A DNA stretch of 64,000 nt, taken from positions 9,000-72,999 of the forward strand of contig CAYYPH010000015.1 of the NCBI GenBank assembly GCA_964473485.1. The letters are read 5' to 3'. The notes beneath the pieces were generated by a model, which had not been told where the DNA came from, searched no databases, and was given only the letters and a program-made list of their open reading frames with translations. Position numbers and translations under genes: made by a program. Shown here piece by piece: positions 10,763 through 54,920 of the stretch (positions within the stretch are counted from its first letter, which is position 1; every line of letters starts with the position of its first letter). The DNA comes from an uncultured Prolixibacteraceae bacterium (lineage in GTDB: Bacteria; Bacteroidota; Bacteroidia; Bacteroidales; FEN-979).

Positions 10763-10773
10763 TTCATCTCCCC

Positions 10774-11436
10774 ATGACCATCCACAAAGAGGGATATAAA
10801 ACCATTGTCATTGCTTTTCTGTTCGTTGCTGCCGTCCTGCTTGCATTCAATCACTTCATTGAGGAACAAACATGGATTCACTGGGTACTTTATGGATGCG
10901 GTCTTTGGTTTTTCGTGACAATCGTCAGATTTTTCCGGTCTCCCAAACGGGATACCAACGGCGGCGAACATATCATCCTCTGCCCTGCCGATGGAAAGGT
11001 GGTTGTTATTGAAAGAACCATTGAGCCAGAATATTTCAAGGATGAACGTATCCAGGTCTCCATCTTCATGTCGGCCAACAATGTGCATGTAAACTGGTTC
11101 CCGGTCCGCGGCGAAATTCTATACTATTATTATCACCCGGGCAAACATATGGTTGCCTTCAATCCAAAGGCATCCCTTGAAAACGAAAGGGCCACCACCG
11201 TCATCAAAACCCCCGAGGACCGGAAAATCCTTATCAGGCAGATAGCAGGAGCCATGGCCCGACGAATAAAATGTTACCCGAAGGTTGGGGAGCCTGTCGA
11301 ACAGGGCGATGAACTTGGTTTTATCAAATTCGGATCAAGGGTTGACCTGCTCCTCCCGGTCGACACGAAGATAGAGGTCAGTCTGAATCAGAAAGTCAGG
11401 GGAAAACAGACCATCATCGGTCGTATCCCGGTCTGA
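10774..11436 (+). CDS. psd: Phosphatidylserine decarboxylase proenzyme (short type)
   Basis: RFFRSP, PADGKVV, SIFMS..NVHVN, GFIKFGSRVD (self-cleavage GS). Confidence 0.93.
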   Translation: MTIHKEGYKTIVIAFLFVAAVLLAFNHFIEEQTWIHWVLYGCGLWFFVTIVRFFRSPKRDTNGGEHIILCPADGKVVVIERTIEPEYFKDERIQVSIFMSANNVHVNWFPVRGEILYYYYHPGKHMVAFNPKASLENERATTVIKTPEDRKILIRQIAGAMARRIKCYPKVGEPVEQGDELGFIKFGSRVDLLLPVDTKIEVSLNQKVRGKQTIIGRIPV

Positions 11437-11440
11437 CATA

Positions 11441-12097
11441 TCAATCCAGCGCCTTCGCAAGAAAGGCATTCAATGGGGCAAATGCCCCGAACACCCCTGC
11501 CATGTATTCGTGAATGTCTGCTCTGCTTAATGTGGCATCTTCCAACGGGTGCGACAAGATGTAATGGCGGTTTTTCAGGATATCAATATCGGGAAAATCT
11601 TTTGGAAAATCCCGGGGCGGTGTTTTTGCCTTGTCCATTTCATCAAGACCAGATGCCAGTTTCTTCAGGCTTTTTTCGTTTAGGATGGATTTAAACTCCC
11701 CGACATTATAAAAGATCTCCTGCCGGATTTTTTTCAACTGATCGGGTTGCGGCATATATACGCCAGTCGCCAGAAACGATTCGCCTGGCTGAATATGAAT
11801 GTAGTAGCCAGGTCCGGCACTTTTCCTGCCCTTTGAAGTGATCCAGGCTCCCATGTTGGTCTTGTAGGGAGATTTATCGCCTGAGAATCTCACATCCCTG
11901 TATATCCTGAACAGGCAATCCTGTGCCGTTACAAACCTTACGGATTCATCAAACCGGGCAATGGAAGGAATGACCTTTTCCACCAGCGACTGAACGGTTG
12001 CCTTTGCCTCTTCATACTGGTGTTTGTTCGCGTTGAACCATTCCCTGTTGTTGTTCTCCTTCAACATGGAGAGAAATGATAGTACCTGGGTCAGCAT
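11441..12097 (-). CDS. DUF2461 / TIGR02453 family protein
   Basis: FLSMLKENNNREWF, FRIYRDVRFS.DKSPYKT, PGYYIHIQPG; start moved to the ATG at 12097 (MLTQVL). Confidence 0.85.
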   Translation of the reverse strand: MLTQVLSFLSMLKENNNREWFNANKHQYEEAKATVQSLVEKVIPSIARFDESVRFVTAQDCLFRIYRDVRFSGDKSPYKTNMGAWITSKGRKSAGPGYYIHIQPGESFLATGVYMPQPDQLKKIRQEIFYNVGEFKSILNEKSLKKLASGLDEMDKAKTPPRDFPKDFPDIDILKNRHYILSHPLEDATLSRADIHEYMAGVFGAFAPLNAFLAKALD

Positions 12098-12180: not shown

Positions 12181-13029
12181 ATGAAAAAAATACTGGCATT
12201 AATTGCAATTTCGCTGATCCCTGCCGCGACATATGCATCGACGGTAGGTGAACGGTTGCCCACGGGCGGCCGTGCCAAAGGCTTTGGAGAAACATCGGTC
12301 ACCTCGTGCGACCTCTGGAGTATCAGCAACAACCAGGCAGCCCTGGCATGGCAATCGTCAGTGGCGGCCGGCATATTCTTCGAAAATCACTTTATGATCA
12401 AGGAGCTGGGACGGCAATTTGCCGCATTTGCCTTTCCAACGCGGGCAGGAGTCATTGGTGCCGGATTCGGGTATTATGGCGACAAGGACTTCAATGAAAT
12501 AAAAACCGGCATATGTTTCAGCCGCCGGTTCGGACCAAGGTTCTCCGCCGGTCTGCAATTTGACTTGTATCATCTCAGGTTTTCAGATATTTATGGGAAA
12601 AAGACACTGGTTTCATGCGAGTTGGGGTTGTTTTACAGGGCAGGGAAAACGCTCCTGATCGGAGTGCATATCATAAATCCTGTTCCTGTTAAACTGGTTT
12701 CCGACCCTGCCGAGTACTTGCCGATGACATTTTGTGCCGGTGTGGGTTACCAGGTCTCTGATGCCTTTCTGCTCACCGCTGAAGCGGAAAAAGATCACCT
12801 GAATCCGCTGATAGTCAGATCTGGCTGCGAATACAGGATCAACGAAAAGTTCCGGATAAGAACCGGGATCATCAGCAGCCCGTGGTCCTTCTCATTTGGT
12901 TGCAGCCTTCATGCAGGACCACTTATTTTCGATATTGCTTCCCTGTATCACCAGCGACTGGGATTTAACCCTGCGGCTTCCCTGATTTACTGCTTCAATT
13001 ACAGAAAACGCCATGGATATAAGGATTAA
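12181..13029 (+). CDS. Outer-membrane beta-barrel protein, PorV/FadL-like N-terminal motif
   Basis: Signal peptide; GGRAKGFG..SV...DLWSISNNQAALA resembles the GARxxGMG...NPAGL motif; alternating beta-strand pattern. Confidence 0.6.
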   Translation: MKKILALIAISLIPAATYASTVGERLPTGGRAKGFGETSVTSCDLWSISNNQAALAWQSSVAAGIFFENHFMIKELGRQFAAFAFPTRAGVIGAGFGYYGDKDFNEIKTGICFSRRFGPRFSAGLQFDLYHLRFSDIYGKKTLVSCELGLFYRAGKTLLIGVHIINPVPVKLVSDPAEYLPMTFCAGVGYQVSDAFLLTAEAEKDHLNPLIVRSGCEYRINEKFRIRTGIISSPWSFSFGCSLHAGPLIFDIASLYHQRLGFNPAASLIYCFNYRKRHGYKD

Positions 13030-15100
13030 CATAAAGTACATGGCAGTGATATGGCTACTTGCCGCTTGCCTGACCGTTGATGCCCAGGAGGAAGTCCTGG
13101 AAGACCAGGTTGAAAAATGGACTGAAGCCGCCGAAGGGATGGACTACCCCGAAGATTTTCCGGAAGAGATCATGGAGATCATGGCCAGGCCGGTTGACCT
13201 GAACAGCAGCCGCCTGGATGACCTTCTTGCAATTCCCTTTCTGACCTCCTTACAGCAGACAAACCTGATCAGCTACCGGATGGAATACGGGAAGATACTT
13301 TCAGTGTACGAATTGACGGCGATTTCCGGTTTCGACTCCCTGATAGTCAGCAGAATATTGCCGTTTATTAAAACCGGCCGGGGTCAGGAACTTCCTTCTT
13401 TCACTCCCCGAAATCTGATTCGCCATGCCCATCATGAACTGATGATAAGGGTTTCGAGGATGTTCCCCGCAGCGGAAGCATACCGTACGCAGGTACTTCC
13501 CGACGGTATGCCGGACGCTCCCGTTTATCCCGGCAATCCGTTCCGCTACTGGTTCCGCTATCAGTACCGCTATCTTGATAAAATAATGATCGGTGTTGCC
13601 GGAGAAAAAGATCCGGGTGAGCAGTTTTTTGCCGGAAACCAGCAGCACGGGATGGACCACTACGCTGCCACCCTCAGCATCAGCAACATCGGGGTTCTGA
13701 AAAACCTTACCATCGGCAACTTCAGGGTTAATTTCGGGCAGGGGCTGACAACGGGATCGGGAAACTATTACGGGTCAACCCCCGGTTTCTGCATGAACAC
13801 CATAAGGCCAACCGGGATCAAACCGACGCTGAGCAACAATGAGATAAACGGATTAAAGGGAATGGGCGGAACCATCAGTGCCGGCAGGGTTGAGGGATCC
13901 GTCTGGTTTTCATATTGCGCCAGAGATGCTACGGTAATCCAGGATTATGCGGATGGACCTAAACAGATAAGCGCGTTATCAGGCAACGGCTACCACCGGA
14001 CGGAAACAGAAATACAAAAGAGAAACACTTTACGTGAGTCGTATGCCGGTGCGAACCTAACAGCCACTGTTATCAATGGTTTTAATGGGGGCCTGAAGAT
14101 CGGTGCGACTGCAACCTGGCTTTACTTTTCCATTCCGTTCGTGGCCGGTGATGAACCTTCAAAAATGTACGCATTCTCTGGAAACACCACTGTTTTCACA
14201 GGATTTGATTTTAACGGAAGATACAAGACTATGTTCTTTTCCGGTGAAATTTGCCGAAGTATAAATGGTGCGCTGGGTTTCATCGCAAGTCTGTCATTAA
14301 CACCGTCTGCCGGCAACGGGATTACGATAATATGCCGGCATTATGCACCAGCCTTCTGGAATCCATATGGCCACGCGTTCAGTCAGAGTTCAGCGAACAC
14401 CAATGAATCTGGGGTTTTCATTTCGGCAGGGGCCATTATTAAACCGAGGCTAAGCATGTCGCTTTTCGCTGATCTGTTCAGGTTTCCATGGTTGAGGTTC
14501 CGGACAGATTCACCGACTATTGGCCAGGAATACGGACTTTGCGCCCGATGGATCGCTTCCGGGGACCTGGAGACCGAAGCCAGGTTATCCATCAGGAACG
14601 GAGAGATCAACGAAACCATACCAACGGGAGAACATTTACACAGGGTTGTTGCCAAAACAAGCGAAACCATCCGCCTGAGCGTCATCTGGATGCCATGGCC
14701 TGAGATAAGATTCAAAACCAGGCTCGATATAAGGAGAGCCTGTCTTGTACCGGTCAGTAAACCCTACGGCTATATGATCTACCAGGAGGTACAGACAAAA
14801 CCTGCGAACTGGATAAGGGGGTTTACTTTCAGGATCGGGTTGTTTGACGTTCCCGATTATGAATCCCGCATCTATACTTATGAGCCTGATGTTCTCAATA
14901 GTTTTTCAGTTCCGGCATTTGAAGGCAGAGGGATGAGATCATGCCTGCTTCTGGCTCTTAATCCATTGAAATTTATGAAGCTATGGATAAAGGGTGGATT
15001 GACTTATTATATGGACAGGGATCAGGTAGGATCGGGACATGATGCAACACCCGGGAATCTCCGGTGCGATGTTTCAGCACAACTGGCTTTCGAGTTTTGA
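13013..15100 (+). CDS. Helix-hairpin-helix (ComEA-like) domain fused to a predicted outer-membrane beta-barrel
   Basis: Signal peptide; PVDLNSSRLDDLLAIPFL...YGKILSVYELTAISGFD HhH; aromatic-rich beta region ending in C-terminal Phe (QLAFEF). Confidence 0.75.
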   Translation: MDIRINIKYMAVIWLLAACLTVDAQEEVLEDQVEKWTEAAEGMDYPEDFPEEIMEIMARPVDLNSSRLDDLLAIPFLTSLQQTNLISYRMEYGKILSVYELTAISGFDSLIVSRILPFIKTGRGQELPSFTPRNLIRHAHHELMIRVSRMFPAAEAYRTQVLPDGMPDAPVYPGNPFRYWFRYQYRYLDKIMIGVAGEKDPGEQFFAGNQQHGMDHYAATLSISNIGVLKNLTIGNFRVNFGQGLTTGSGNYYGSTPGFCMNTIRPTGIKPTLSNNEINGLKGMGGTISAGRVEGSVWFSYCARDATVIQDYADGPKQISALSGNGYHRTETEIQKRNTLRESYAGANLTATVINGFNGGLKIGATATWLYFSIPFVAGDEPSKMYAFSGNTTVFTGFDFNGRYKTMFFSGEICRSINGALGFIASLSLTPSAGNGITIICRHYAPAFWNPYGHAFSQSSANTNESGVFISAGAIIKPRLSMSLFADLFRFPWLRFRTDSPTIGQEYGLCARWIASGDLETEARLSIRNGEINETIPTGEHLHRVVAKTSETIRLSVIWMPWPEIRFKTRLDIRRACLVPVSKPYGYMIYQEVQTKPANWIRGFTFRIGLFDVPDYESRIYTYEPDVLNSFSVPAFEGRGMRSCLLLALNPLKFMKLWIKGGLTYYMDRDQVGSGHDATPGNLRCDVSAQLAFEF

Positions 15101-15209: not shown

Positions 15210-15764
15210 CTATTTCTTGTGCTCCTTCATCTTTTGTAAAGCATCCATTCCCTTAATATTCATACCTTTCGACAGCTTTGATACGGTTGAAAGGTCGATG
15301 TTTCCGGTGAGACTGAGAACGGCCACCTCCTTCTTGTCTTTCATCAGCATGACCATTTCATTGATCTTGCCACTCTCATCCTGTTTGGTCAGAAACCTGA
15401 TATTCTGACGGCCTTCATTCAATGCCATCAATTCTTTGTAGGTACTCGGAGGAAACACACCGGCAAACTCATTGTAAATGGAAACTGCCTTGGCAATCTT
15501 TGTGGAATCAAAAGTATAGGTAAGCACTTTAAGTCCGTTGAGCTGTTCCATCATTTTTTTCATTTCGGTCATGCTGGAATCGTTCACCTGGTCCTTACCC
15601 ATTTGCAGGAACATCTGGAATAGTTCCTTTGAAATGTTGACTGAAGTAAAGCCCTCCTGGGTGGCGTATTTATCAAATACTTTATCGATGGGGCTTTGGG
15701 CATTTAATAGCAACGGGGCCAATAAAAGAAAGCCGATTGCTAGGTTACACATTTTTGTTTTCAT
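15210..15764 (-). CDS. DUF4252 family exported protein
   Basis: Signal peptide; SPIDKVFDKY...GFTSVNISKELF, INEMVML, LSLTGNIDL; typical position after ECF sigma/anti-sigma pair. Confidence 0.8.
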   Translation of the reverse strand: MKTKMCNLAIGFLLLAPLLLNAQSPIDKVFDKYATQEGFTSVNISKELFQMFLQMGKDQVNDSSMTEMKKMMEQLNGLKVLTYTFDSTKIAKAVSIYNEFAGVFPPSTYKELMALNEGRQNIRFLTKQDESGKINEMVMLMKDKKEVAVLSLTGNIDLSTVSKLSKGMNIKGMDALQKMKEHKK

Positions 15765-15766
15765 AA

Positions 15767-16354
15767 TTACCTGTTTTTGTTGGACACTGTTTGGGCATTG
15801 TCCGGGGTTAAACTAATTGGTTGATATTGATAAAATTTTGAAAGAAGCTCAACATTGTGCATGGCTTTATCGATGTATTGCATTTTCCCGGCTTCCACAA
15901 GGCCCTTATTCAATGTAGAGGAGACCAGCATAAGCGCTTCCGCTGCATTCACCATTGACTGCTGTTCGCTCAGCGCCATTGACTGGTCGCCGTTCCGCGG
16001 CAATATGTCAAAGCGGAAAGTGAATACCATGGCCACAAGCAGCAACACGGCGGCGGCAATACCCGAATAGAGGTAACGCCGGTTTACTGATCTCCACATC
16101 GGAATGGTAAGAGGCCGGTTATGCTCAGACATTTCCAGATCGCCGGGAATGACAAACTGTCCGGCAGCATCTGAGGTTATTTCGTTTTCGCTTCTCAGAT
16201 AGGAAAAGAACGGCTGGTGGTCTTTCAGGTGGTCCGGGACTTCGTCGCCTGAAAAAAAGTCTTTCAGGATCTTTTCTTCAGCCAGGGTTGTGTCACCATC
16301 ATAATACCTGTCGAGAAGTATTTCAATTTCTTTGATATTCATATTTGGTTGCAT
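15767..16354 (-). CDS. Putative anti-sigma factor (single TM)
   Basis: IEILLDRYYDGDTTLAEEKILKDFF N-terminal anti-sigma-like motif, one TM, overlaps the 3' end of the ECF sigma gene. Confidence 0.7.
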   Translation of the reverse strand: MQPNMNIKEIEILLDRYYDGDTTLAEEKILKDFFSGDEVPDHLKDHQPFFSYLRSENEITSDAAGQFVIPGDLEMSEHNRPLTIPMWRSVNRRYLYSGIAAAVLLLVAMVFTFRFDILPRNGDQSMALSEQQSMVNAAEALMLVSSTLNKGLVEAGKMQYIDKAMHNVELLSKFYQYQPISLTPDNAQTVSNKNR

Positions 16355-16838
16355 TTAGTATTAATTCCCTGATCCTTTTTCTTGCTCTCGAGAGGGCTAC
16401 CCTTATGGCATTCTCATTCATATCGGTCACCGCTGCAATTTCATCAAATTCATAGCCTTCCACGTCTCTAAGATGCATGATTGTACGTTGCTGCTCCGGT
16501 AGCATATTCATGGCGATCCTGATCTTGTTGAGCATATCAGAGTTATCCTCCCTCGTCTCTCCCGGAATATTCTCGAGGTACTGCCTATGGTTTTCCATAT
16601 TCTCAACAGGGTATTTCCTTCCTCTTATCTTGTCAAGGCATATATTGCGTGTTGTAGTCATGGCAAGTGCCTCGATACTTCTGTATTTACTCAGCTCCTC
16701 CCGCTTATTCCAAAGTCGTATGAAAACCTCCTGAACTGCATCCTCCGCCTCTTCCTGTTGTTCGAGCAGTCTCCGGGAGAACCTGAACAATTTGTCGCGC
16801 AATGGATAAACCGAAGTATTGAATTCCTTGAGGGTCAT
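16323..16838 (-). CDS. ECF (sigma-70 family) RNA polymerase sigma factor
   Basis: Region 2 (EAEDAVQEVFIRLW, TTRNICLDKIR) and region 4 (LPEQQRTIMHLRDVEGYEFDEIA...VALSRARK); start set at ATG 16838 because a -7 box lies at 16863-16870. Confidence 0.93.
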   Translation of the reverse strand: MTLKEFNTSVYPLRDKLFRFSRRLLEQQEEAEDAVQEVFIRLWNKREELSKYRSIEALAMTTTRNICLDKIRGRKYPVENMENHRQYLENIPGETREDNSDMLNKIRIAMNMLPEQQRTIMHLRDVEGYEFDEIAAVTDMNENAIRVALSRARKRIRELILNATKYEYQRN

Positions 16839-16862
16839 ACGGAAGGCAAGACGATAAAATCG

Positions 16863-16870
16863 CAAAAATA
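16863..16870 (-). promoter_or_regulatory. -7 element for the ECF sigma operon
   Basis: TATTTTTG on the minus strand, 24 nt upstream of ATG 16838. Confidence 0.55.
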
Positions 16871-25331: not shown

Positions 25332-26723
25332 TTAGTTTGTTTTGGTCTTTACCCAGGCACGCTGGAATGTGCAGTGCCTGTAATCTTCCATCACCACGAT
25401 GTAGGTTGATAGCATTTTCTGATCAACCCAGCCTTCCACGACTTCCATCTTTTTCTTCTCCAGGGCCATCTGCTGAATTCTGGCATAATCGTCCTCCAGG
25501 TTTGCTTTATGAGGACTGGTACGCGATTTCAGGTAAAATATCCGGTAATCCTGTTTGCCTCGTTCGGTGTTCAGCACGGGGGCAGACACCTCGCCTACCT
25601 TGAGCTTGTCGACGACGAAGAAAACCTTGGCATCAATCTGTGAGGCTTCGAACTTACTGTTTCCGCTGGCCGGATTGATCAGCCATCCTCCGCTGTTCCT
25701 GTTGGGGTCGTCAGAATATTTCAGGACCGCCTGGTCGAACGTGATGGCTTTTTTGTTAATCAGTGAAACGACAGAATCGAGCGACACTTTGGCTATGTTC
25801 AGGTTCACCGGCGAGACTTTAGGCTGAAGAAGGATGTGCCTGACGTTGATGTATTCTCCCCGCCTTTCGATCATCTGGATCAGGTGAAACCCATCCTCGG
25901 TCTCAACAATGTCGGAGACTTCGCCCGGTTTTAATTTAAAGGAGGCTGCTTCGAATTCCGGGCGCATCTCGCCCCTCCTGAACATCCCCAGTTCGCCGCC
26001 CTGCTTGGAGGAGCCCGGATCCTCCGAATAGAGCACCGCCAGGGTGCTGAAATCATCACCCTTTTGGATTCTTTCCTTAAAGCTCTTTAGTTTGTCGCGT
26101 GCGGCCTGCTTTTCCGCCTCACCCATAGCCGGATGTCTCACAATCACACCAATTTCGTATTCGGAGCTGATCAAAGGGATACTGTCTTTCGGCATTTTTT
26201 TGAAAAACGCTTTCACTTCGGAGGGTGTAATGGCAACATCTTTTGTGATCTTCTGTTGTTCCTGCTCGGTAAGCATTTGCTCCCTGATCACTTCCCTGAG
26301 TTCGTTTTTTATTTCCAGGAGTGACTTCCCGAAATGTTCTTCAAGGCGTTCAGGTGTTCCGGCCTGGGAGATAAAAAACCGCATTCGCCGGTCCATTTCC
26401 GATTCCACCTGGTCATCGGTAACAGTGATGCTGTCGACCTGAGCCTGGTGCAGCAGCAACTTCTGATAAAGCAGGTTTTCGAGGATCTGGCATTTCAGAC
26501 TGGTTGCGGTTCCCTGAATGATGCCCTGGCTCCTGATCTGAATATACTGGCTTTCGATATCGGATCTGAGGACCATGTTGCCTCCGACCACTGCTGCCAC
26601 AGCATCGATGATTGTATCGGGGCGGTTCTGCGCGGCTGCCGGCGATGCATTAAAAGCAAGTAAGAAAATGCAAAAAAACGCTGTGGTGATAAGTTTCATA
26701 AACGGAAGTTTGGGCTTGTCCAT
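25332..26723 (-). CDS. surA: SurA-like periplasmic chaperone / parvulin PPIase
   Basis: IIDAVAAVVGGNMVLRSDI N-domain; rotamase motifs FSTLAVLYSEDPGS..GGELG and VRHILL. Confidence 0.8.
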   Translation of the reverse strand: MDKPKLPFMKLITTAFFCIFLLAFNASPAAAQNRPDTIIDAVAAVVGGNMVLRSDIESQYIQIRSQGIIQGTATSLKCQILENLLYQKLLLHQAQVDSITVTDDQVESEMDRRMRFFISQAGTPERLEEHFGKSLLEIKNELREVIREQMLTEQEQQKITKDVAITPSEVKAFFKKMPKDSIPLISSEYEIGVIVRHPAMGEAEKQAARDKLKSFKERIQKGDDFSTLAVLYSEDPGSSKQGGELGMFRRGEMRPEFEAASFKLKPGEVSDIVETEDGFHLIQMIERRGEYINVRHILLQPKVSPVNLNIAKVSLDSVVSLINKKAITFDQAVLKYSDDPNRNSGGWLINPASGNSKFEASQIDAKVFFVVDKLKVGEVSAPVLNTERGKQDYRIFYLKSRTSPHKANLEDDYARIQQMALEKKKMEVVEGWVDQKMLSTYIVVMEDYRHCTFQRAWVKTKTN

Positions 26724-27563
26724 TCAATATATTTCGAAATCGTTATCCGACCTGGCCCTGTTGAAGATATCCTGCTGCATGGTATTCAACAGATCTACCT
26801 TTCGCTTGTTCAGGATAATATCAATGATCCGCTGCCGTTCAAAACTTAACGGTGAAACGCTTTCTTTTATTTTAAAATCGTCAAACCGCACCAGGTAGAT
26901 AAAGAGAGAGTCCTGATACTCAAGAAACCGGTTATTCTTCAGAAAATCTTCCTGATTGTAACTTTTTACAGGCACAAGTTTAAGCAGGTCGCTGAAAAGC
27001 AACCAGTTCTGGTTATCGAGAAAAAAATCGGCTGCCTGCTTTTCACATAGATCAGCCAGGCGGTTCCTATCATCCGGGTCATCAGAGTTCAGGTATTTTA
27101 TAAACTGCTTCAATGATCTGTTACGAAGGGGAAGTTTGACATACCGGAACTGCACTATATTATCCTTAAGCAGGAAATTCTGCTGATTGGCATCATAGTA
27201 ACTCTGAATTTCATCATTGGTAACTAGGGTGTCGAGTTTCTGCCTGACCAAAGCATTCTCATATTCGTAAATGATGAGTGAGTTTTTGTAATTCTCCAGT
27301 TGTCGTGAAAAATCGAGTTGTTCGCCGGTAAGGTTCTTTTCAGCCTGATGAATAATGAGCCGTTGCGATATCCAGTTCCGGACATAAGCCTTTGCAAGTG
27401 CGATACTATCTGCAGAGGAGGTTCCGGCAGGGATCACATCACGTAGCTCGGACTCATAAAGATATTCATCATAAGCCCTGGCCAGGACACGTTCATCACT
27501 TTTTTTAAATAGGGTTCCGCACGAGGCAAGGACGACCAACAGGAGAATGAATGCCCGATTCAC
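26724..27563 (-). CDS. Lipoprotein, PPIase/SurA-N-like (conserved in the Bacteroidota guaB-surA cluster)
   Basis: Lipobox VLASC; VLARAYDEYLYESEL; PLSFERQRIIDIILNKRK. Confidence 0.7.
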   Translation of the reverse strand: MNRAFILLLVVLASCGTLFKKSDERVLARAYDEYLYESELRDVIPAGTSSADSIALAKAYVRNWISQRLIIHQAEKNLTGEQLDFSRQLENYKNSLIIYEYENALVRQKLDTLVTNDEIQSYYDANQQNFLLKDNIVQFRYVKLPLRNRSLKQFIKYLNSDDPDDRNRLADLCEKQAADFFLDNQNWLLFSDLLKLVPVKSYNQEDFLKNNRFLEYQDSLFIYLVRFDDFKIKESVSPLSFERQRIIDIILNKRKVDLLNTMQQDIFNRARSDNDFEIY

Positions 27564-27569
27564 AGCAGG

Positions 27570-29561
27570 TCATCTGATTTTAGCTAAAACTTCCTTGTTC
27601 ACCGTAACCGGGTATTTTGCTCTCAAAGCCTTTATCCACTCCTTTTCGAGGTAATTCTGGTAATCGGCTGTGATTAATCCGCGGGCCTCGTTCAGTTCCT
27701 TGGGCTGTGGCTTGAGTACTTTGCGGACATACACGAAAAGCGTGGCGTCCTTTTGTTTAATATCACCCGAAAAACCAGGTGTCCATGCTATAGAATCGAT
27801 GATATTGTTTTCTTTTTTGCTGAATTTTCCACTTTCGATGGTGAGAATTTTCAGGGAATCACCGTTGATCTCTTTCAATACATCCTGGTCGGTAAGCCCC
27901 GACTGTATAAAGTTTTTCACCCGCTGCACCGCTGCAATATCCCTTACGGTATATATGCTGGCATCGAGACGGGTTTCCCACATATAATTATTCTTGTTCT
28001 TCTGGTAAAAATCCTTCAGCCCCAGCGTGTCTTTGACTGCCTTTGACCATACTTTCTGATCAGTAAGGTCGAAGAGCAATATTCCATCGCGGTATTCGGC
28101 CATGAGGGCCTTAAAATCGGGATGCTTGTTCTCCAACTGGGTATTTTCCCATTTCAGTAGATTATCGTCAAGAAATGCTTTGAACATCTTATCCACATAA
28201 GCCGGGATATTTTGTTTTTCCTGCTTCCGCTGTGTTTTTGCAAGATAGCTCGCGAAGTCTGTCTGGAGCAGTGTCAGGTTACCGATCTTGCAAATGGGCT
28301 TTGTAAGGCCGGAGGCCATCGAAGCCTTCCACGTTCCGAAAAAGATGCTGTCGGTAACAACCGGATAAAATGCCTTCACCGCATCCGTGAACTCTGTAAC
28401 GCCGTATTCAGCTCTGATACGCTCCAGTACAACCTGTTTGGTAAGTTCACCACGGTTGTCTTTCATGATCTTTTGCTTCAATTCTGCCTTTTCTTCATCA
28501 AAAGGCCGTTGTCCTTTCTTTTCAATCAGTTTGATGATGTGCCAGCCATAAGGGGTAAGCGTTGGTTTGGAAAAATCGCCGGGATTCTGGAGCGGGTAGA
28601 TGGCTTCAATAAATTCAGGCACCATTCTGTTAACGCCGAATGCGGGCAGCACCCCGCCTTTTGCGGCAGATCCCTTATCATCGGAATAGCTCTTGACCAG
28701 GTCCTCGAAAGGAGTACCACCCGTAAGCAGCTTATAAACTGAGTCTACCCTGTTTCTTAGTCTGGCTGAATCTTCGGCAGTGGCATTTTTCGGAACGGAG
28801 ACAAAGATATGGGCCACTGTAACTTTACCCAGGGCAGGTCTGCGATCAGTAACTTTGATCAGGTGATAGCCGTATTCAGTTCTTACAGGGGTCGAAACCT
28901 TTCCCACTTCGGTATTGTAGGCTCCGTTTTCGAAGGGATAAACCATATCGAACACCGTGAAATAACCCAGGTCTCCTTTATTACCTTTCATGTAGGGATG
29001 CTGCTGGGTAGCCTCCCTGTCTTTGGCCGAAGGGTCTTCTGAAAACTCGATGGCCATCTGTTCATAAGATGCCCCACCCTTAATTTTGCTCAGAACATCA
29101 AGGGCTTTATTGTATGCAGCCAGCGTGTCCTCAGGACTGGGATCGGGTTTCAGTCTGAAAAAAATGTGACTGGCGCGGAGGTCGGTTTTCTGTCTTTCAT
29201 AGGCCTCGTTAATCAGCCGGTCGAGGGTGGCATCATCGGTAAAATAAGGTTTTGCAAGCTGTTCGCGGTAGCCGTTCAGCTCATTTCTGAAAGATGCGAG
29301 GGTGTCGAGCCCCATCTCTTCTGCCTCTTTCACTTTCAGTTTGAAGTTAATATAGAGTTCAAGGTATTCGTCAAGTGATTTTTTATCGATGGCTTCGCCT
29401 TTGACGTTGTTTTTCTGGTAGATGCTCATGAATTCACTGACCTTGATCTTTTTGCCTGCGATTGTCATCAATGTCTCATCGGCATTTGCCTGGGCGAGAG
29501 CAAACAAGGGAAAAACCATCCACAGAACCAATAGTAAAACTTTCGTGCTTAAACTATTCAT
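27570..29561 (-). CDS. Parvulin-type peptidyl-prolyl isomerase with two rotamase domains
   Basis: Signal peptide; LRASHIFF...FSEDPSA..GDLGYF, VAHIFV...YSDDKGSA.KGGVL, TPYGWHIIK. Confidence 0.88.
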   Translation of the reverse strand: MNSLSTKVLLLVLWMVFPLFALAQANADETLMTIAGKKIKVSEFMSIYQKNNVKGEAIDKKSLDEYLELYINFKLKVKEAEEMGLDTLASFRNELNGYREQLAKPYFTDDATLDRLINEAYERQKTDLRASHIFFRLKPDPSPEDTLAAYNKALDVLSKIKGGASYEQMAIEFSEDPSAKDREATQQHPYMKGNKGDLGYFTVFDMVYPFENGAYNTEVGKVSTPVRTEYGYHLIKVTDRRPALGKVTVAHIFVSVPKNATAEDSARLRNRVDSVYKLLTGGTPFEDLVKSYSDDKGSAAKGGVLPAFGVNRMVPEFIEAIYPLQNPGDFSKPTLTPYGWHIIKLIEKKGQRPFDEEKAELKQKIMKDNRGELTKQVVLERIRAEYGVTEFTDAVKAFYPVVTDSIFFGTWKASMASGLTKPICKIGNLTLLQTDFASYLAKTQRKQEKQNIPAYVDKMFKAFLDDNLLKWENTQLENKHPDFKALMAEYRDGILLFDLTDQKVWSKAVKDTLGLKDFYQKNKNNYMWETRLDASIYTVRDIAAVQRVKNFIQSGLTDQDVLKEINGDSLKILTIESGKFSKKENNIIDSIAWTPGFSGDIKQKDATLFVYVRKVLKPQPKELNEARGLITADYQNYLEKEWIKALRAKYPVTVNKEVLAKIR

Positions 29562-31099: not shown

Positions 31100-31119
31100 A
31101 TGGCTGGAAATTAAGTGTG

Positions 31120-31127
31120 CAAATGTA
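31120..31127 (-). promoter_or_regulatory. -7 element for guaB
   Basis: TACATTTG on the minus strand, 20 nt upstream of the guaB start. Confidence 0.6.
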
Positions 31128-31242
31128 AGAAAAAATGTAATTTAACTGGTAGTCCGAAATAATTACCTTTTCCCTGACCTGCAGCCGGAGAACATCTGTA
31201 AGCAAAATAAAATGATATGAATTTTCTAACCCGGACCCGGTT

Positions 31243-32733
31243 TCAGGGATAGAGTTCTTTATGACATTCAGTGCAGAAATAGGTCTTCCAGTTATCTTTC
31301 ACATCCACCGGATGCAGGAATACCATGGAACTGTCAATCCCGCCATACCTGACCTTTCCGGTAGGACCCTGGGCCACAATCGTATGACATATGTCGCAGT
31401 CCTTGGAAATGGTCCGCCCCTTTTCGCTGGTATGACGGTCGGAGTGGCAACGGAAACAACCGTCAGACTCCAGATGACCGATGTGATTCAGGTAATTTTT
31501 GGCAGAAGCACGCATGTAAGGGAAGACATTCATCGAAAATTCCTTTAAAATTCCGGCGATGGCTTTATCAATCAAATTTTTTCCGGTCGCAAACACTTCA
31601 GGGTAACCTGTACGGTAAAAATTGGTTATGCTGTCGCGGATGTAAGCGTGGGCTGAATCCTTGTCAGTAAAAGGTCCCTTCAGTACATTCATGGCCACCT
31701 GTTTAATATAGGGCAGTTCTTTGGGAATCTCTCCGGTAATCAATGCATTATCAACAAACTGTATAGCCGACTTATACGAATGTGACGGCCGGTTATGGCA
31801 ATCCATACAATCCATCAACCGAACCGGCAACGTATCCAGTGCTTTCGGATCAAGCGGGTTCTCGGAATCCTGGAATATCTGGACCTCCCCGGTTTTCATG
31901 TTTGTAAACCTTACCCAGGGAATGACCTCCCGGTCGGTGGTTGCTGCCACGTATTCAATGTGAACATCCTGGTTGATATGCCAGTGTATTCCCTCGGTGA
32001 GGCCCATGGGGCTGTGATCGGGGCCAATCCGCATTAACAGCGAGCAATTCCACTCGGTATTCGCCGAATCAGCCAGGTATGACCGTTCATGCCGGATTTT
32101 CTTGGCGTAGAATTTCTGGGGCCAATGACACCGTTCGCAGGTCTCCCTGGCGGGTCGCAGATCTTTGATGGGGGTCTCAATAGGGCGTGCATATTTATTG
32201 AAGATCACGGAATAGACCTGGTATAAGCCTGATAGCTTTGATTTAACATACCAGCCGGCGCCCTCTCCCACGTGACACTCCACGCAGGCTACACGGGCAT
32301 GCGGCGAGTGCAGATAGGTGACGTACTCCGGCTCCATCACATCATGGCATAATTTCCCGCAGAAAGGCACGGATTCAGTGTAATTGAACGCTTCGTAACT
32401 ACCCATCGCCGAAATGATAAGAAACAAAAATGTGAAAATCGAAACTGTGATAAACCTGCTCCTGTTGCGGGGGATATTGAGGTCGAGCACGGGCCATCGT
32501 TTTTCAGGATCATGTGTCTTCTTCCGGTTAATAAACATCCCGACAGGTATCATCAGCAGACCGATGACCAGAATAACCGGTAAAATGATGTAGGTAAAAA
32601 TACCGTTGTAGGGATTTGGATGCTCTGTCAGCAATGACTGAACGAAAAGCACCAGAATGAGGATCAGGCTGTTTACGGCAAAGATGAAACCCGTGATACT
32701 TACCCAGTTCGAAACACTTTTTGGTAATTTCAT
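31243..32733 (-). CDS. Membrane-anchored heptaheme c-type cytochrome, NapC/NirT family (ImcH-like architecture)
   Basis: Three N-terminal TM helices, then CGKLCH, CVECH, CERCH, CMDCH, CFRCH, CDICH, CTECH (1 CX3CH + 6 CX2CH). Confidence 0.85.
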   Translation of the reverse strand: MKLPKSVSNWVSITGFIFAVNSLILILVLFVQSLLTEHPNPYNGIFTYIILPVILVIGLLMIPVGMFINRKKTHDPEKRWPVLDLNIPRNRSRFITVSIFTFLFLIISAMGSYEAFNYTESVPFCGKLCHDVMEPEYVTYLHSPHARVACVECHVGEGAGWYVKSKLSGLYQVYSVIFNKYARPIETPIKDLRPARETCERCHWPQKFYAKKIRHERSYLADSANTEWNCSLLMRIGPDHSPMGLTEGIHWHINQDVHIEYVAATTDREVIPWVRFTNMKTGEVQIFQDSENPLDPKALDTLPVRLMDCMDCHNRPSHSYKSAIQFVDNALITGEIPKELPYIKQVAMNVLKGPFTDKDSAHAYIRDSITNFYRTGYPEVFATGKNLIDKAIAGILKEFSMNVFPYMRASAKNYLNHIGHLESDGCFRCHSDRHTSEKGRTISKDCDICHTIVAQGPTGKVRYGGIDSSMVFLHPVDVKDNWKTYFCTECHKELYP

Positions 32734-32820
32734 AGTTACTTGGCTTTAATTGCTTGATGGTTGACATTTAGGCGTGTTAAAAATAAATATAAATTTCCGA
32801 AAATATCAAATAACCATATG

Positions 32821-32828
32821 TAAGTTTG
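32821..32828 (+). promoter_or_regulatory. -7 element for the cyclophilin gene
   Basis: TAAGTTTG 17 nt before the ATG at 32846. Confidence 0.55.
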
Positions 32829-32845
32829 TGGAAATAATTTGAACC

Positions 32846-50771: not shown

Positions 50772-51737
50772 ATGGAAGATAACCACAACCATCAACCTAC
50801 CGAAGGAGATCCAAAAGGTTCATCGAGAAGAGACTTTCTGAAGAATCTCGGACTGGCCGGGGTGGGTGTTGCAACAGGCGCGGCCGCGCTCTATTCGGGT
50901 CATATTTTTGAGGCAAAAAAGGAAGTTTCAGGTGTAAAAAGAGTGTTACTTACCCAGGACGGAAAGCTGGTTCAGGTGGATTCGTTGAAAATGAAGGCGA
51001 TGGAAAAGACCGGAGAAGAGCTGCTCACCTTTCAGGGCCGCGAAGGGATTCCCGGACGGCGATGGGTGATGGTGACCGATCTCTCGCGTTGCCGTAATGC
51101 CCGGCGTTGTATTACCGCCTGCCAGGAGGCACACCAGCTGAAACCGGAGCAGTATCATATCAATACGCTGCAGATGCAGGATTCGCCGAATACTGCCCCC
51201 TACCACATGCCCAAAAACTGCCAGCACTGCGACAATCCGCCCTGTGTTTCGGTATGCCCTGTTGATGCCACCTACAAACGCCCCGATGGAATTGTGCTGA
51301 TCGATAACGACCGGTGTATCGGATGCCGGTTCTGTATGTCGGCCTGCCCTTACTCAGCAAGGATTTTTAATTGGCTGGAGCCGAAAGATGCCGCCAAGCA
51401 TCAGGATCAGGATTACAATGTGGAGTTAAATGTCCCTCAGAAACTTGGCACCATTTCAAAATGCCTTTTCAGCGCCGACCGTCTTCGCGAAGGCAAACTG
51501 CCCTATTGTGTATCAGCCTGTCCGAACGGGGTATACTATTTCGGCGATGAAAACGAGGATGCAGTAACCAACGGAACCACGCAGGAGACAGTGAGGCTCA
51601 GCAAGCTGTTGCGCGATAACGGCGGATACCAGCTCATGCCGGAGCTTGGGACCAAGCCGAGGGTCTATTATCTTCCCCCGAAGAACCGTCTTTTCCCATT
51701 TGATGAAACTCCAGAACCATCCCCTAAAAAAGCGTGA
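50772..51737 (+). CDS. Tat-exported multi-Fe-S protein (NrfC/DsrO/ActB2-like)
   Basis: SSRRDFLK twin-arginine signal; Cys groups CRNARRCITAC, CQHCDNPPCVSVCP, CIGCRFCMSACP, KCLFS...PYCVSACP; GTKPRVYY. Confidence 0.9.
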   Translation: MEDNHNHQPTEGDPKGSSRRDFLKNLGLAGVGVATGAAALYSGHIFEAKKEVSGVKRVLLTQDGKLVQVDSLKMKAMEKTGEELLTFQGREGIPGRRWVMVTDLSRCRNARRCITACQEAHQLKPEQYHINTLQMQDSPNTAPYHMPKNCQHCDNPPCVSVCPVDATYKRPDGIVLIDNDRCIGCRFCMSACPYSARIFNWLEPKDAAKHQDQDYNVELNVPQKLGTISKCLFSADRLREGKLPYCVSACPNGVYYFGDENEDAVTNGTTQETVRLSKLLRDNGGYQLMPELGTKPRVYYLPPKNRLFPFDETPEPSPKKA

Positions 51738-53065
51738 ACCATATGGAATACAACAAATTAACCATTGAGAAAGTCACCTATGACCTGAGCCATCATATTC
51801 GGATCAACAAAGGGTTTATCCTTTGGATGGGTTTCCTGACCGTGTCGCTGCTGATATGTCTTTACGCTTATTCAGTGCAGCTCAGGGAAGGTCTGGGAGT
51901 GGCCGGAATACGTGACTATGTGAGCTGGGGCATCTACCTTTCGAACTTCGTTTTTTTCGTGGCTTCCAGCCTTATCGGTATGCTGATCAGTGCTGTTCTT
52001 GGCCTGATCGGGTTCAAATGGGTGACGCCGTTGACCAGAATCGCCGAAACCATCGCCGTGGCCTTTGCCGCTGTTGCGGGGCTGGTGATCGTTTCGGACA
52101 TGGGGCGACCGGAGCGGCTGGCCTATGTTTTCATTCATGCGCGTTTCCAGTCGCCGATCCTCTGGGACGTTACTGTGATCACTACCTATTTTGTGCTGAG
52201 CCTGTTACTTCTTTACCTTCCGCTGATAGCCGACATGGCCATCATTCACCGGAAGTTTGATGCCCTGCCCGCCTGGTTAAAACCCGTCTACAAAATCCTT
52301 TCCCTCAATTTCACCGACTCACCCGAACAGAACCGGATCATTCACCGGGCAATAAGGATCCTGCTCATCCTGATCGTTCCGATGGCCCTATCCATTCATA
52401 CCGTCACATCGTGGTTGTTTGCCGTTACCTCACGGGCAGGCTGGGACAGCACGATCTTTGGGCCGTATTTCGTATCCGGGGCCTTTGTTGCCGGGGCAGC
52501 GGCCGTAATCGTGGCCATGTACTTCTTTCGGAATAACTACAAGCTGCAAGACTACCTGACGGAAATGCATTTCAACAACATGGGCAAGGTACTGGCTTTG
52601 GTCTCGCTGGTCTATCTCTATTTCAACATCAATGAGTTTCTTGTACCGGGATACAAACTCAAACGGGCCGATGCCGTTCACCTGCATGAATTACTTGCAG
52701 GCAAGGATGCCGCGATGTTCTGGCTTGTCCAGGTGGGAGGCCTTATCGTTCCCATTATTCTGATGCTGTTCAGGAGGTTCAGGAAACCGTTGCCAATCAT
52801 GCTCATCTCTGTTGCAGTGATCGTCGCGGCGTGGTTTAAACGCTACCTGATCGTCATCCCCACGCAGGAGCATCCTTTCCTGCCCATACAGCATGTGCCT
52901 GAAAACTTTGTTCACTACACCCCCACCCTCCTTGAATCGCTTATTTCGCTGGCGCCTTTCCTCCTTGTTCTGATCATCATCACACTAATCTCCAAGTTTT
53001 TTCCCGTTATCCCGATCCACGAGACAGCCAGGGAAAAAGGGATTGAGCATGTAACCTTTGATTAA
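51734..53065 (+). CDS. NrfD/PsrC-family quinone-interacting membrane protein (10 TM, ActC/QrcD/DsrP-like)
   Basis: WGIYLSNFVFF, DMGRPER, FQSPILWD, SIHTVTSWLF, WDSTIFGPYFVSGAFVAG; about 10 hydrophobic helices. Confidence 0.9.
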   Translation: MNHMEYNKLTIEKVTYDLSHHIRINKGFILWMGFLTVSLLICLYAYSVQLREGLGVAGIRDYVSWGIYLSNFVFFVASSLIGMLISAVLGLIGFKWVTPLTRIAETIAVAFAAVAGLVIVSDMGRPERLAYVFIHARFQSPILWDVTVITTYFVLSLLLLYLPLIADMAIIHRKFDALPAWLKPVYKILSLNFTDSPEQNRIIHRAIRILLILIVPMALSIHTVTSWLFAVTSRAGWDSTIFGPYFVSGAFVAGAAAVIVAMYFFRNNYKLQDYLTEMHFNNMGKVLALVSLVYLYFNINEFLVPGYKLKRADAVHLHELLAGKDAAMFWLVQVGGLIVPIILMLFRRFRKPLPIMLISVAVIVAAWFKRYLIVIPTQEHPFLPIQHVPENFVHYTPTLLESLISLAPFLLVLIIITLISKFFPVIPIHETAREKGIEHVTFD

Positions 53066-53085
53066 TCAACAAACAACCGGAAATT

Positions 53086-53988
53086 ATGCGTTTCAACTCA
53101 CTGATAATCATTTCCTTCATCCTTACACAGGGATTCAGTATAACTGCTTCCGGCCAGGCATGGGTTGTTCCCGATGACCAGAAAGCGATCAGGGCACCAT
53201 TCAAATTCACGCCCGATATGCAGAAGAAGGGGGAGGAACTTTATGCCAAAAACTGTCAGTCGTGTCACGGTCAGCCCGGAAAAGATAACTGGGCCCAGCT
53301 GACACCTCCGCCGGGTGACCTGGCCAAGGACAAAGTGGCCAAAGAGACCGATGGGGAGATGTTTTACAAGATCACTGCAGGAAGGCCGCCGATGCCTGAA
53401 TTCAGGAATATTCTCACCGAGGACGAGCGCTGGTGGGTGGTAGCCTATGTCCGTACTTTTCACGCAGGATATGTGCAGCCTGAACCAGGTCCAGTAAAAG
53501 CTTTCGACGGCCGGACCATCACGCTTCACATGAAATTCAACGAAAAGGAGAAAAAGATCATTGTCAGCGCTACCGAGCTGACAAAAGAGAATACCCAGAT
53601 ACCGGCTGAAGGAGTGGATATATCGGTTTGGGTGAAACGCTATTTCGGCCTCATGCAGGCCACCGAGGTCAAGACCACTGGCCCCTCGGGGAATGCAGTG
53701 TTTTCCTTCCCTGAAGACATACCGGGCAATAAGGGTGGCTTTGTGGATCTTGTGGCGAGGGTCAATGATCCGAAAGGGACGATGCGGTCATCACCGGCTA
53801 CGGCCAGTCTGGCGATTGGGAAACCCACAGACCTGCCGGGCCTGACCGAAACCCGTGCATGGTGGTCAGTGAGGTCGCAGGCGCCGGTTTGGGTCATTCT
53901 GACCTATTCCCTGTCCGTCATCATTGTTTGGGGATTCATACTATATATTGTTTATACCATATTGCAGATAAGAAAGGTGAGCGGGTGA
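53086..53988 (+). CDS. Monoheme cytochrome c with an extra beta-sandwich-like domain and C-terminal TM anchor
   Basis: Signal peptide; GEELYAKNCQSCHG, distal ligand candidate RPPMPEF; C-terminal VWVILTYSLSVIIVWGFILYIVY. Confidence 0.85.
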   Translation: MRFNSLIIISFILTQGFSITASGQAWVVPDDQKAIRAPFKFTPDMQKKGEELYAKNCQSCHGQPGKDNWAQLTPPPGDLAKDKVAKETDGEMFYKITAGRPPMPEFRNILTEDERWWVVAYVRTFHAGYVQPEPGPVKAFDGRTITLHMKFNEKEKKIIVSATELTKENTQIPAEGVDISVWVKRYFGLMQATEVKTTGPSGNAVFSFPEDIPGNKGGFVDLVARVNDPKGTMRSSPATASLAIGKPTDLPGLTETRAWWSVRSQAPVWVILTYSLSVIIVWGFILYIVYTILQIRKVSG

Positions 53989-54919: not shown

Positions 54920-54920
54920 T

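What the first reader, a model, noticed from the sequence alone, without database searches (positions are those of the whole stretch)
31243..32733. Stand-alone ImcH-like 3-TM heptaheme quinol oxidase in a Bacteroidota genome
Seen: three N-terminal TM helices followed by seven heme-binding motifs, the first an atypical CX3CH (CGKLCH). The gene lies between guaB and a cyclophilin with no partner reductase gene. Established: NapC/NirT proteins are tetraheme quinol dehydrogenases usually encoded with their terminal reductase, whereas Geobacter sulfurreducens ImcH is a NapC/NirT-related inner-membrane protein with about three TM helices and seven hemes, needed for respiration of high-potential extracellular acceptors. 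Inference: this organism may route menaquinol electrons to periplasmic or extracellular acceptors (Fe(III)/Mn oxides, humics, electrodes). This is not a trait usually assigned to fermentative Bacteroidales.
Basis: partly seen in the sequence, partly recalled or inferred. Interest (0 to 1): 0.68.

Follow-up and report, generated by a model that had tools for sequence, protein, structure and literature searches.

The report
ImcH-family heptahaem quinol dehydrogenase gene
The gene encodes a membrane cytochrome of the known ImcH family, which takes electrons from menaquinol and hands them to periplasmic carriers; the call is correct, but the family is already reported and very common in environmental Bacteroidota, and this organism is a respirer rather than a fermenter.

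Summary
Window 31243..32733 (-) is an intact 496-aa ORF with three N-terminal TM helices and seven haem motifs (CGKLCH, then six CXXCH). It is the only multihaem ORF in the 64 kb, and guaB and a cyclophilin flank it.

It fits the ImcH family as published:
- length, three TM helices, and a CX3CH directly after TM3
- haem spacing identical to the listed Draconibacterium sediminis ImcH homologue and near-identical to Geobacter GSU3259
- the published haem-1 pocket residues of GSU3259 (H137, E127, K173, Q179, Y188) recur at a constant -7 offset (H130, E120, K166, Q172, Y181)

It fails the NrfH, NapC and TorC equivalog models. Only its N-terminal region resembles NrfH in fold.

The family is huge: at least 7989 90%-identity clusters and at least 584 species genomes. 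ImcH homologues in Bacteroidota are already published. Standing alone is normal, since Geobacter imcH is monocistronic. In roughly a quarter of related loci the gene sits beside multihaem cytochromes, a DUF5777 beta-barrel, NrfCD-like and CbcL-like modules and CcsBA.

The "fermentative Bacteroidales" framing fails: the same window encodes a cytochrome c oxidase cluster. The terminal acceptor is unknown.

Verdict: a new member of a known kind, of modest interest.

The parts
31243..32733 (-). imcH-like gene, 496 aa, inner-membrane heptahaem c-type cytochrome
   Evidence: ORF; motifs; Pfam PF03264 plus c7/c3; family comparison
32629..32706 (-). TM helix 1 (residues 10-35)
   Evidence: AlphaFold helices with pLDDT about 85; coordinates checked
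32515..32613 (-). TM helix 2 (residues 41-73), followed by a positively charged cytoplasmic loop (residues 69-92, 7 K/R)
32380..32472 (-). TM helix 3 (residues 88-118). It corresponds to the single NrfH anchor helix and ends at E120, the equivalent of ImcH E127.
32119..32457 (-). NapC/NirT/NrfH-like region (residues 93-205) holding haems 1-3 and the putative menaquinol site: H130, M133, K166, Q172, Y181
   Evidence: PF03264 E 3.4e-7; TIGR03153 partial hit; phmmer alignment to 2j7a_C with K166-K82, Q172-D89 and M133-M49; Foldseek hit to 2j7a_C, prob 1.00, rmsd 2.7 A; published ImcH residues
32344..32361 (-). Haem motif 1, atypical CX3CH (CGKLCH)
   Evidence: invariant in A1 and A2; family hallmark
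32272..32286 (-). Haem motif 2, CVECH
32125..32139 (-). Haem motif 3, CERCH
31864..32100 (-). Beta-rich insert (residues 212-290) between haems 3 and 4. It carries the invariant GIHWH (H250, H252), candidate distal ligands. No PDB counterpart.
31795..31809 (-). Haem motif 4, CMDCH, inside the invariant DCMDCHNRPSH
31528..31767 (-). Helical domain (residues 323-402), pLDDT above 90, no PDB counterpart
31444..31458 (-). Haem motif 5, CFRCH
31384..31398 (-). Haem motif 6, CDICH
31261..31275 (-). Haem motif 7, CTECH. In the Geobacter model this is the solvent-exposed exit haem.
32734..32845 (.). 112-nt divergent intergenic region between imcH and the cyclophilin gene. It is AT-rich and holds a TATATTTA-type element resembling the Bacteroidota -7 box. 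The promoter assignment is inferred.
   Evidence: Sequence read; the sigma-70 scan is not above background
31100..31242 (.). 143-nt spacer between the imcH stop and the guaB start. It holds TACATTTG, which matches the Bacteroidota -7 consensus TAnnTTTG, so guaB probably has its own promoter. This is inferred.
   Evidence: Sequence read

Best explanation
The gene encodes an ImcH-family inner-membrane cytochrome.

Proposed mechanism:
- Three helices anchor it in the cytoplasmic membrane, with the haem domain in the periplasm.
- Menaquinol is oxidised in a pocket beside haem 1, at the periplasmic face just after TM3. H130 of the CX3CH motif is the proximal ligand and Q172 the distal one. E120, K166 and Y181 are the protonatable residues.
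- Protons are released to the periplasm, so the step is electroneutral.
- Electrons run along the seven-haem chain to the exposed last haem. From there they pass to soluble or membrane-associated periplasmic c-type cytochromes encoded elsewhere in the genome.

Shown here: the architecture, family membership by published criteria, conservation of the pocket residues, purifying selection, and the NrfH-like fold of the N-terminal part.

Inferred from the Geobacter work: quinol oxidation, the direction of proton release, and the hand-over to periplasmic cytochromes.

Unknown: the terminal acceptor in this organism. An extracellular or high-potential acceptor chain is the leading guess, because relatives place imcH inside multihaem-cytochrome/beta-barrel islands. 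The cytochrome c oxidase branch encoded 18 kb away is an alternative sink.
For: Architecture and motifs.

Published family definition (3 TM, CX3CH next to the TM domain, six CX2CH, 495-519 aa).

Haem positions in Table S3: the window protein has the same inter-motif spacing (24/49/110/117/20/41) as the listed Bacteroidetes ImcH homologue, Draconibacterium sediminis WP_045033316.1. GSU3259 has 24/49/106/117/20/38.

Published GSU3259 residues H137, E127, K173, Q179 and Y188 map to H130, E120, K166, Q172 and Y181 at one constant offset. K166 and Q172 are invariant, and E120 and Y181 at least 90% conserved, across 74 homologues.

The phmmer alignment to NrfH puts K166 on K82 and Q172 on D89.

The AlphaFold model (pLDDT 79.4, pTM 0.75) matches only NrfH in the PDB, as reported for Geobacter ImcH.

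Relatives at 53-55% identity come from Melioribacter and Caldithrix, genera whose proteins are listed as ImcH homologues.

Full-length 38% identity (E 5e-118) to a Deltaproteobacteria/Acidobacteriota-type family member, P0150.

Neighbourhoods of relatives hold multihaem cytochromes, a DUF5777 beta-barrel, cytochrome b561, an NrfCD-like module, CbcL-like fusions and CcsBA.

Two near-identical RNA-library contigs lie inside the gene.
Against: No direct alignment to the GSU3259 sequence could be made, because that sequence could not be retrieved. The link rests on published coordinates and on transitive homology.

No downstream carrier, outer-membrane conduit or Ccs/Ccm gene lies in the 64 kb. 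None lies in the 10 kb to the left either.

In the closest clade (68% identity or more) imcH sits next to guaB, with no cytochrome neighbours.

No ImcH homologue from Bacteroidota has been tested experimentally, as far as the searched literature shows.

The RNA evidence is thin, and one of the two libraries may contain DNA.
Confidence: 0.8

Rival explanations
1. It works mainly as a quinol:cytochrome c oxidoreductase for oxygen respiration. It would reduce the monohaem cytochrome c and the cytochrome c domain of CoxB in the haem-copper oxidase cluster in the same window, rather than extracellular acceptors.
For: The window encodes CtaD, CtaE, a CoxIV-like small ORF, CoxB with a C-terminal cytochrome c, SCO1, CtaB and a monohaem cytochrome c at 53086..59540. 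The family also occurs in aerobic lineages such as Cytophagales. In Geobacter, ImcH serves high-potential acceptors.
Against: The oxidase cluster has its own adjacent NrfC/NrfD-like quinol module. In relatives, imcH co-localises with multihaem cytochromes and a beta-barrel rather than with oxidase genes. No published link between ImcH and oxygen reduction was found.
Confidence: 0.15
2. It is a dedicated NrfH/NapC/TorC-type anchor for a specific periplasmic reductase (nitrite, nitrate, TMAO/DMSO) encoded elsewhere.
For: Pfam PF03264 and a partial TIGR03153 NrfH hit. Sources name the protein 'NapC/NirT family cytochrome c'.
Against: NrfH scores 48.7 bits against a cut-off of 134.2. TorC scores 10.8 against 478. 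NapC/NirT TIGR02161 gives no hit. The protein has seven haems and three TM helices instead of four haems and one helix. No nrfA, napA or torA lies next to it in the window or in any of 83 related loci examined; the 5-haem neighbours hit no NrfA model.
Confidence: 0.04
3. It runs in reverse as a quinone reductase, taking up electrons from Fe(II), a cathode or reduced humics.
For: Multihaem chains are in principle reversible. Related CymA and CbcL/MtoC families occur in iron oxidisers.
Against: ImcH homologues have so far been found only in Fe(III) reducers, not in oxidisers. The low haem potentials of -358 to -150 mV favour quinol oxidation towards higher-potential partners.
Confidence: 0.03

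Closest known systems
ImcH (GSU3259) of Geobacter sulfurreducens, inner-membrane heptahaem menaquinol dehydrogenase
   Same: Length is 496 against 507 aa. Both have three N-terminal TM helices, a CX3CH first motif directly after TM3 and six CXXCH motifs. Spacing is 24/49/110/117/20/41 against 24/49/106/117/20/38. The haem-1 pocket residues His/Gln/Glu/Lys/Tyr recur at a constant offset. The first part has an NrfH-like fold. Both genes stand alone.
   Different: Different phylum. A 4-residue longer insert lies between haems 3 and 4, and a 3-residue longer spacer before haem 7. Sequence identity to GSU3259 itself was not measured. The host has a cytochrome c oxidase cluster nearby and no visible Ppc/Omc-type partners in the window. 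Function is untested.
Draconibacterium sediminis WP_045033316.1, Melioribacter roseus WP_014855859.1 and Caldithrix abyssi WP_006929899.1 (published ImcH homologues of the FCB group)
   Same: Haem-motif spacing is identical to Draconibacterium and within one residue of Melioribacter. Genome relatives from Prolixibacteraceae, Melioribacter and Caldithrix are 53-62% identical to the window protein.
   Different: These proteins are 488-490 aa against 496. The window protein belongs to an uncultured Bacteroidales clade whose nearest genome representative is 78% identical.
NrfH (PDB 2j7a chain C), NapC/NirT/CymA tetrahaem quinol dehydrogenases
   Same: Homologous N-terminal region with the anchor helix, the haem-1 quinol pocket, the conserved Lys (K82/K166) and the Met after the first motif.
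   Different: Those proteins have one TM helix and four haems in about 140-190 aa, a CXXCH first motif, and are usually encoded with their reductase. The window protein has three helices, seven haems, a roughly 100-aa insert and a roughly 190-aa C-terminal extension. It scores far below the equivalog cut-offs.
CbcL/MtrH/MtoC (multihaem c plus dihaem b quinol oxidoreductases)
   Same: Same physiological niche: an inner-membrane gateway to periplasmic cytochromes. Homologues sit next to imcH in several related Bacteroidota loci: L034, L068, L069 and L071.
   Different: The window protein has no cytochrome b domain, and the haem domain is not homologous. No CbcL-like gene is present in the window.

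Membership tests
ImcH family | Three N-terminal transmembrane helices with the haem domain periplasmic | tested here: met
   Helices 10-35, 41-73 and 88-118. Positive-inside loop charges.
ImcH family | Atypical CX3CH first haem motif immediately after the TM domain | tested here: met
   C125GKLCH130, seven residues after TM3. Invariant in 74 homologues.
ImcH family | Six further CXXCH motifs with the family spacing; length 495-519 aa, or at least 75% of GSU3259 | tested here: met
   Motifs at 150, 199, 309, 426, 446 and 487 in 496 aa. Spacing compared with Table S3.
ImcH family | Region of NapC/NirT/NrfH homology covering the first haems | tested here: met
   PF03264 above the gathering score. 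phmmer hit to NrfH, E 3e-4. Foldseek hit to NrfH, prob 1.00.
ImcH family | Haem-1 pocket: His proximal and Gln distal ligands plus conserved Glu, Lys and Tyr (GSU3259 H137, Q179, E127, K173, Y188) | tested here: met
   H130, Q172, E120, K166 and Y181 at a constant -7 offset from the published numbers. Conservation. The mapping was made from published residue numbers, not from an alignment with the GSU3259 sequence.
ImcH family | Significant direct sequence similarity to, and phylogenetic clustering with, GSU3259 | not testable with these tools
   The GSU3259 sequence could not be retrieved. Indirect support: 38% full-length identity to family member P0150, and 53-62% identity to genera listed as ImcH-bearing.
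ImcH family | Menaquinol oxidation, reduction of periplasmic cytochromes, and requirement for high-potential acceptors | not testable with these tools
   Known only for Geobacter.
NrfH (TIGR03153 equivalog) | Score above the curated cut-off; tetrahaem; single TM helix; encoded with nrfA | tested here: not met
   48.7 bits against a cut-off of 134.2, covering residues 98-205 only. Seven haems and three TM helices. No nrfA-like gene in the window.
NapC/NirT (TIGR02161), TorC (TIGR02162), CymA | Match to the family model; four or five haems; single anchor helix | tested here: not met
   No TIGR02161 hit at E of 1 or below. TorC scores 10.8 bits against 478.
CbcL/MtrH/MtoC | Multihaem c domain fused to or paired with a HydC/FdnI-type dihaem cytochrome b | tested here: not met
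   No cytochrome b domain in the protein, and none adjacent.

The most novel reading that the evidence does not exclude
In this abundant sludge, biofilm and sediment Bacteroidales, ImcH may be the inner-membrane entry point of an uncharacterised Bacteroidota-type trans-envelope electron conduit. That conduit would be built from 5- and 7-haem cytochromes and a DUF5777 outer-membrane beta-barrel, under Crp/Fnr control and encoded elsewhere in the genome. Polysaccharide-degrading Bacteroidales would then be overlooked respirers of Fe(III)/Mn(IV), humics or electrodes.
Probability: 0.3. Interest if true: 0.6.

Novelty: new member of a known kind. Interest (0 to 1): 0.25.

Why it matters
imcH is used as a marker gene for predicting extracellular electron transfer from metagenomes. 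This work shows three things:
- The family is a common component of environmental Bacteroidota, found in hundreds of species genomes.
- It often sits in a recurring cytochrome/beta-barrel island.
- It also occurs alone in genomes that carry an aerobic chain.

Two practical points follow. A lone imcH hit should not be read as proof of metal respiration. And cultured relatives such as Draconibacterium, Prolixibacter, Tangfeifania, Marinifilum and Rosettibacter are available for testing what ImcH does outside Geobacter. For this window the result is a sound annotation, not a discovery.

Tried and rejected
1. The first AlphaFold run, with 30 close homologues, was unusable (pLDDT 59.8, pTM 0.35). 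A 74-sequence alignment that added the P0150 clade gave pLDDT 79.4 and pTM 0.75.

2. Attempts to obtain the Geobacter GSU3259 sequence for direct alignment all failed:
- No 50%-cluster representative in the top 150 carried a Geobacter name.
- P0150, chosen for motif numbering like that of GSU3259, belongs to a Polyangia/Acidobacteriota/Deferrimicrobiaceae clade.
- No supplement with sequences is held.
I did not use the third homology search. Any query less than 50% identical to Geobacter would not bring it into the top 120.

3. Walking along the source contig: the left 10 kb is housekeeping. The right-end look-ups failed or returned only a short contig.

4. I did not search for the relatives' partner cytochromes in the window organism's own genome. 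The only recognisable positive would have been a hit on the same 360-kb contig, which had a low prior, and a negative result would say nothing.

5. Literature searches pairing ImcH with Bacteroidota or Bacteroidales returned mostly unrelated hits. PMC10504345 mentions imcH only for a Pelobacteraceae MAG.

6. The sigma-70 promoter and terminator scan was not above background and does not suit Bacteroidota promoters.

7. Antisense ORFs inside the gene (for example 31261..31548 +) are treated as spurious, because the sense frame is the conserved one.

Full report
**What is there**

Window 31243..32733 (-) is an uninterrupted 496-aa ORF. It carries seven c-type haem motifs at C125 (CGKLCH, a CX3CH), C150, C199, C309, C426, C446 and C487. 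A six-frame scan of the whole window found no other ORF with more than one such motif, so the cluster is not a chance feature.

AlphaFold places three long helices at 10-35, 41-73 and 88-118. The loop between helices 2 and 3 has 7 K/R, while the loop between helices 1 and 2 has none. This gives an N-in topology with the haem domain in the periplasm.

**Is it a real, functional gene?**

- In 30 Bacteroidota homologues (60-80% identity) and in a 74-sequence set reaching 36% identity, all seven motifs are invariant. So are several extra histidines that could serve as distal ligands: H145, H250, H318 and H474 are invariant, and H252, H420 and H434 are at least 90% conserved.
- Against homologues of 68-78% identity, synonymous sites are saturated (pS 0.70-0.85) while pN is 0.14-0.20.
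- Two short contigs from RNA libraries, one from wastewater and one from sediment, match inside the gene with 0 and 2 mismatches. This is weak evidence of expression.

**What family**

Pfam finds the NapC/NirT N-terminal domain (residues 93-181) and c7/c3-type signatures at the C-terminus. NCBIfam gives only a partial NrfH hit of 48.7 bits against a cut-off of 134.2, nothing for NapC/NirT, and a negligible TorC hit. In the PDB only NrfH matches, both by sequence (E 3e-4) and by fold (2j7a_C, probability 1.00, rmsd 2.7 A over 108 columns). Residues from about 210 to 496 have no structural counterpart.

The published description of ImcH fits point by point:
- Family members of 495-519 aa with the CX3CH next to the TM domain, plus six CX2CH (Zhong and Shi 2018, PMC6295460).

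Table S3 of the Zhong and Shi paper lists haem positions. The window protein has exactly the inter-motif spacing of the one Bacteroidetes entry, Draconibacterium sediminis (24/49/110/117/20/41). It is within one residue of Melioribacter roseus. It differs from GSU3259 (24/49/106/117/20/38) only by a 4-residue and a 3-residue length change.

The Geobacter ImcH study (bioRxiv 10.1101/2023.05.03.539133) names H137 and Q179 as the ligands of haem 1. It names E127, K173 and Y188 as conserved pocket residues. The window protein has H130, Q172, E120, K166 and Y181, a single constant offset of 7. In the 74-sequence alignment K166 and Q172 are invariant, and E120 and Y181 are at least 90% conserved. 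The phmmer alignment to NrfH independently puts K166 on the essential K82 and Q172 on D89.

I could not retrieve the GSU3259 sequence itself. Direct identity and tree placement therefore remain untested.

**How common is it?**

- At least 7989 clusters at 90% identity match the protein, and the top 120 are all full-length at 60% identity or more.
- 3279 clusters at 50% identity match, 679 of them below 1e-30.
- Nearly all of the top 150 representatives share the three hydrophobic segments, the CX3CH and five or six CXXCH. Some carry C-terminal multihaem extensions.
The best 80 come from Bacteroidales, Prolixibacteraceae, Tangfeifania, Marinifilum, Lentimicrobiaceae, Cytophagales, Ignavibacteriota (Melioribacter, Rosettibacter primus) and Calditrichota.
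- More distant clusters are named from Planctomycetota, Acidobacteriota and Verrucomicrobiota.
- The literature already states that ImcH is widespread, including in Bacteroidota.

**Context**

In the clade closest to the window (68% identity or more) the order imcH-guaB-SurA-like PPIases-MoxR-pst is conserved, and no cytochrome gene is nearby. This looks like lineage synteny, not functional linkage. A TACATTTG element in the 143-nt spacer suggests that guaB has its own promoter (inference).

At 50-72% identity the picture changes. Of 83 related loci, many of them truncated, the following were found near imcH:
- 22 have a 5-haem cytochrome.
- 17 have a 7-haem cytochrome.
- 19 have a DUF5777 membrane beta-barrel.
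- 19 have a Crp/Fnr regulator.
- 16 have a cytochrome b561.
- 12 to 16 have an NrfC/NrfD-like pair followed by a conserved gene of about 330 aa.
- 4 have a CbcL-like fusion of 18-19 haems with cytochrome b.
- 5 have a fused CcsBA maturation gene.

L014 (72% identity) shows the full island on one strand: Crp, 5-haem, 126-aa ORF, DUF5777, monohaem c, 7-haem, b561, FeS, NrfD, 330-aa ORF, imcH, riboflavin kinase. An anode-enriched Bacteroidetes MAG with six multihaem cytochrome genes and a beta-barrel has been described (PMC8258643). These neighbourhoods support a role for the family in moving electrons across the envelope. None of this island is in the window.

**The organism**

The window also holds a respiratory cluster at 50772..59540:
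- a Tat-type 4Fe-4S protein (NrfC/DsrO-like)
- an NrfD/DsrP-like membrane subunit
- a 300-aa monohaem cytochrome c
- SCO1
- cytochrome c oxidase subunits I and III, a small subunit-IV-like ORF, and subunit II with a C-terminal cytochrome c
- haem O synthase

The FeS and NrfD proteins are 50% and 36% identical to the pair that sits beside imcH in L014. So this is a respiring organism that makes c-type cytochromes, and it must therefore have a maturation system (inference). DNA runs place it in sludge, biofilm, wastewater and sediment.

**Mechanism**

I favour the Geobacter model. Menaquinol is oxidised at the haem-1 pocket, protons and electrons are released on the periplasmic side, and electrons travel through seven haems to periplasmic cytochromes. 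Confidence in this biochemical role is about 0.8.

The end of the chain is open:
- An extracellular or otherwise high-potential acceptor chain encoded elsewhere is the leading possibility (about 0.3-0.4).
- Feeding the cytochrome c oxidase branch is a live alternative (about 0.15).
- A dedicated NrfH/NapC-type role is essentially excluded by the model scores, the architecture and the absence of reductase neighbours in 83 loci.

**Verdict**

Standing alone is typical of ImcH. The ecological surprise is overstated, because the family is published for, and pervasive in, environmental Bacteroidota, and this organism respires. It is a new member of a known kind, with an interest score of about 0.25.

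Noticed in passing
window 50772..59540 (+): A respiratory cluster: Tat-type 4Fe-4S NrfC/DsrO-like protein (321 aa), NrfD/DsrP-like membrane subunit (443 aa), 300-aa monohaem cytochrome c, SCO1, CtaD, CtaE, a subunit-IV-like ORF of about 95 aa (about 57270..57560), CoxB with a C-terminal cytochrome c, and haem O synthase. It looks like a reduced alternative-complex-III-like quinol:cytochrome c module joined to a caa3-type oxidase. It lacks the pentahaem ActA and the molybdopterin-like ActB1.
   Followed up: partly
L014 731..12008; L071 1197..15403; L025 316..13738: A recurring island around imcH in Bacteroidales and Cytophagales: Crp/Fnr, 5-haem, small ORF, DUF5777 beta-barrel, monohaem c, 7-haem, cytochrome b561, FeS, NrfD, 330-aa ORF, imcH. 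Variants add a CbcL-like 19-haem/cytochrome b fusion, a 4-haem protein and a fused CcsBA. L025 carries two full-length imcH paralogues (5570..7075 and 10001..11500).
   Followed up: partly
window 53086..53988 (+): The 300-aa monohaem cytochrome c matches two separate genes of the L014 island. Its N-terminal part matches the monohaem c (35%) and its C-terminal part matches the 330-aa ORF of unknown function (28%). This suggests a fusion.
   Followed up: no
L018, L060: Contigs carrying Bacteroidota-like imcH (64% and 52% identity) are filed under a Gloeobacterales cyanobacterium MAG and a Heimdallarchaeota MAG. Binning contamination is likely.
   Followed up: no
P0129, P0134, P0162, P0153, P0155: Some family members are much longer. 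Some are 876-940 aa with 19-20 extra haem motifs after the ImcH core. Others are 734-771 aa with about 10-16 hydrophobic segments fused in front of it.
   Followed up: no
window 31345..31347 (residue 463): The 360-kb ENA contig that otherwise matches the window has Phe where the window has Tyr at residue 463. This is one non-synonymous difference in 1491 nt, a strain-level variant.
   Followed up: yes
window 12181..15100 (+): Two consecutive ORFs of 282 and 695 aa have no Pfam family, apart from a sub-threshold helix-hairpin-helix hit in the second.
   Followed up: no
window 15210..16865 (-): An ECF-type sigma factor is followed by an ORF with no family match and a DUF4252 protein. This is a typical Bacteroidota sigma/anti-sigma-like trio.
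   Followed up: no
window 26724..29561 and 25332..26723 (-): Directly downstream of guaB lie two SurA-like parvulin PPIases with an unannotated 279-aa ORF between them, then MoxR and pstSCAB. This block is syntenic with imcH-guaB across the clade.
   Followed up: partly
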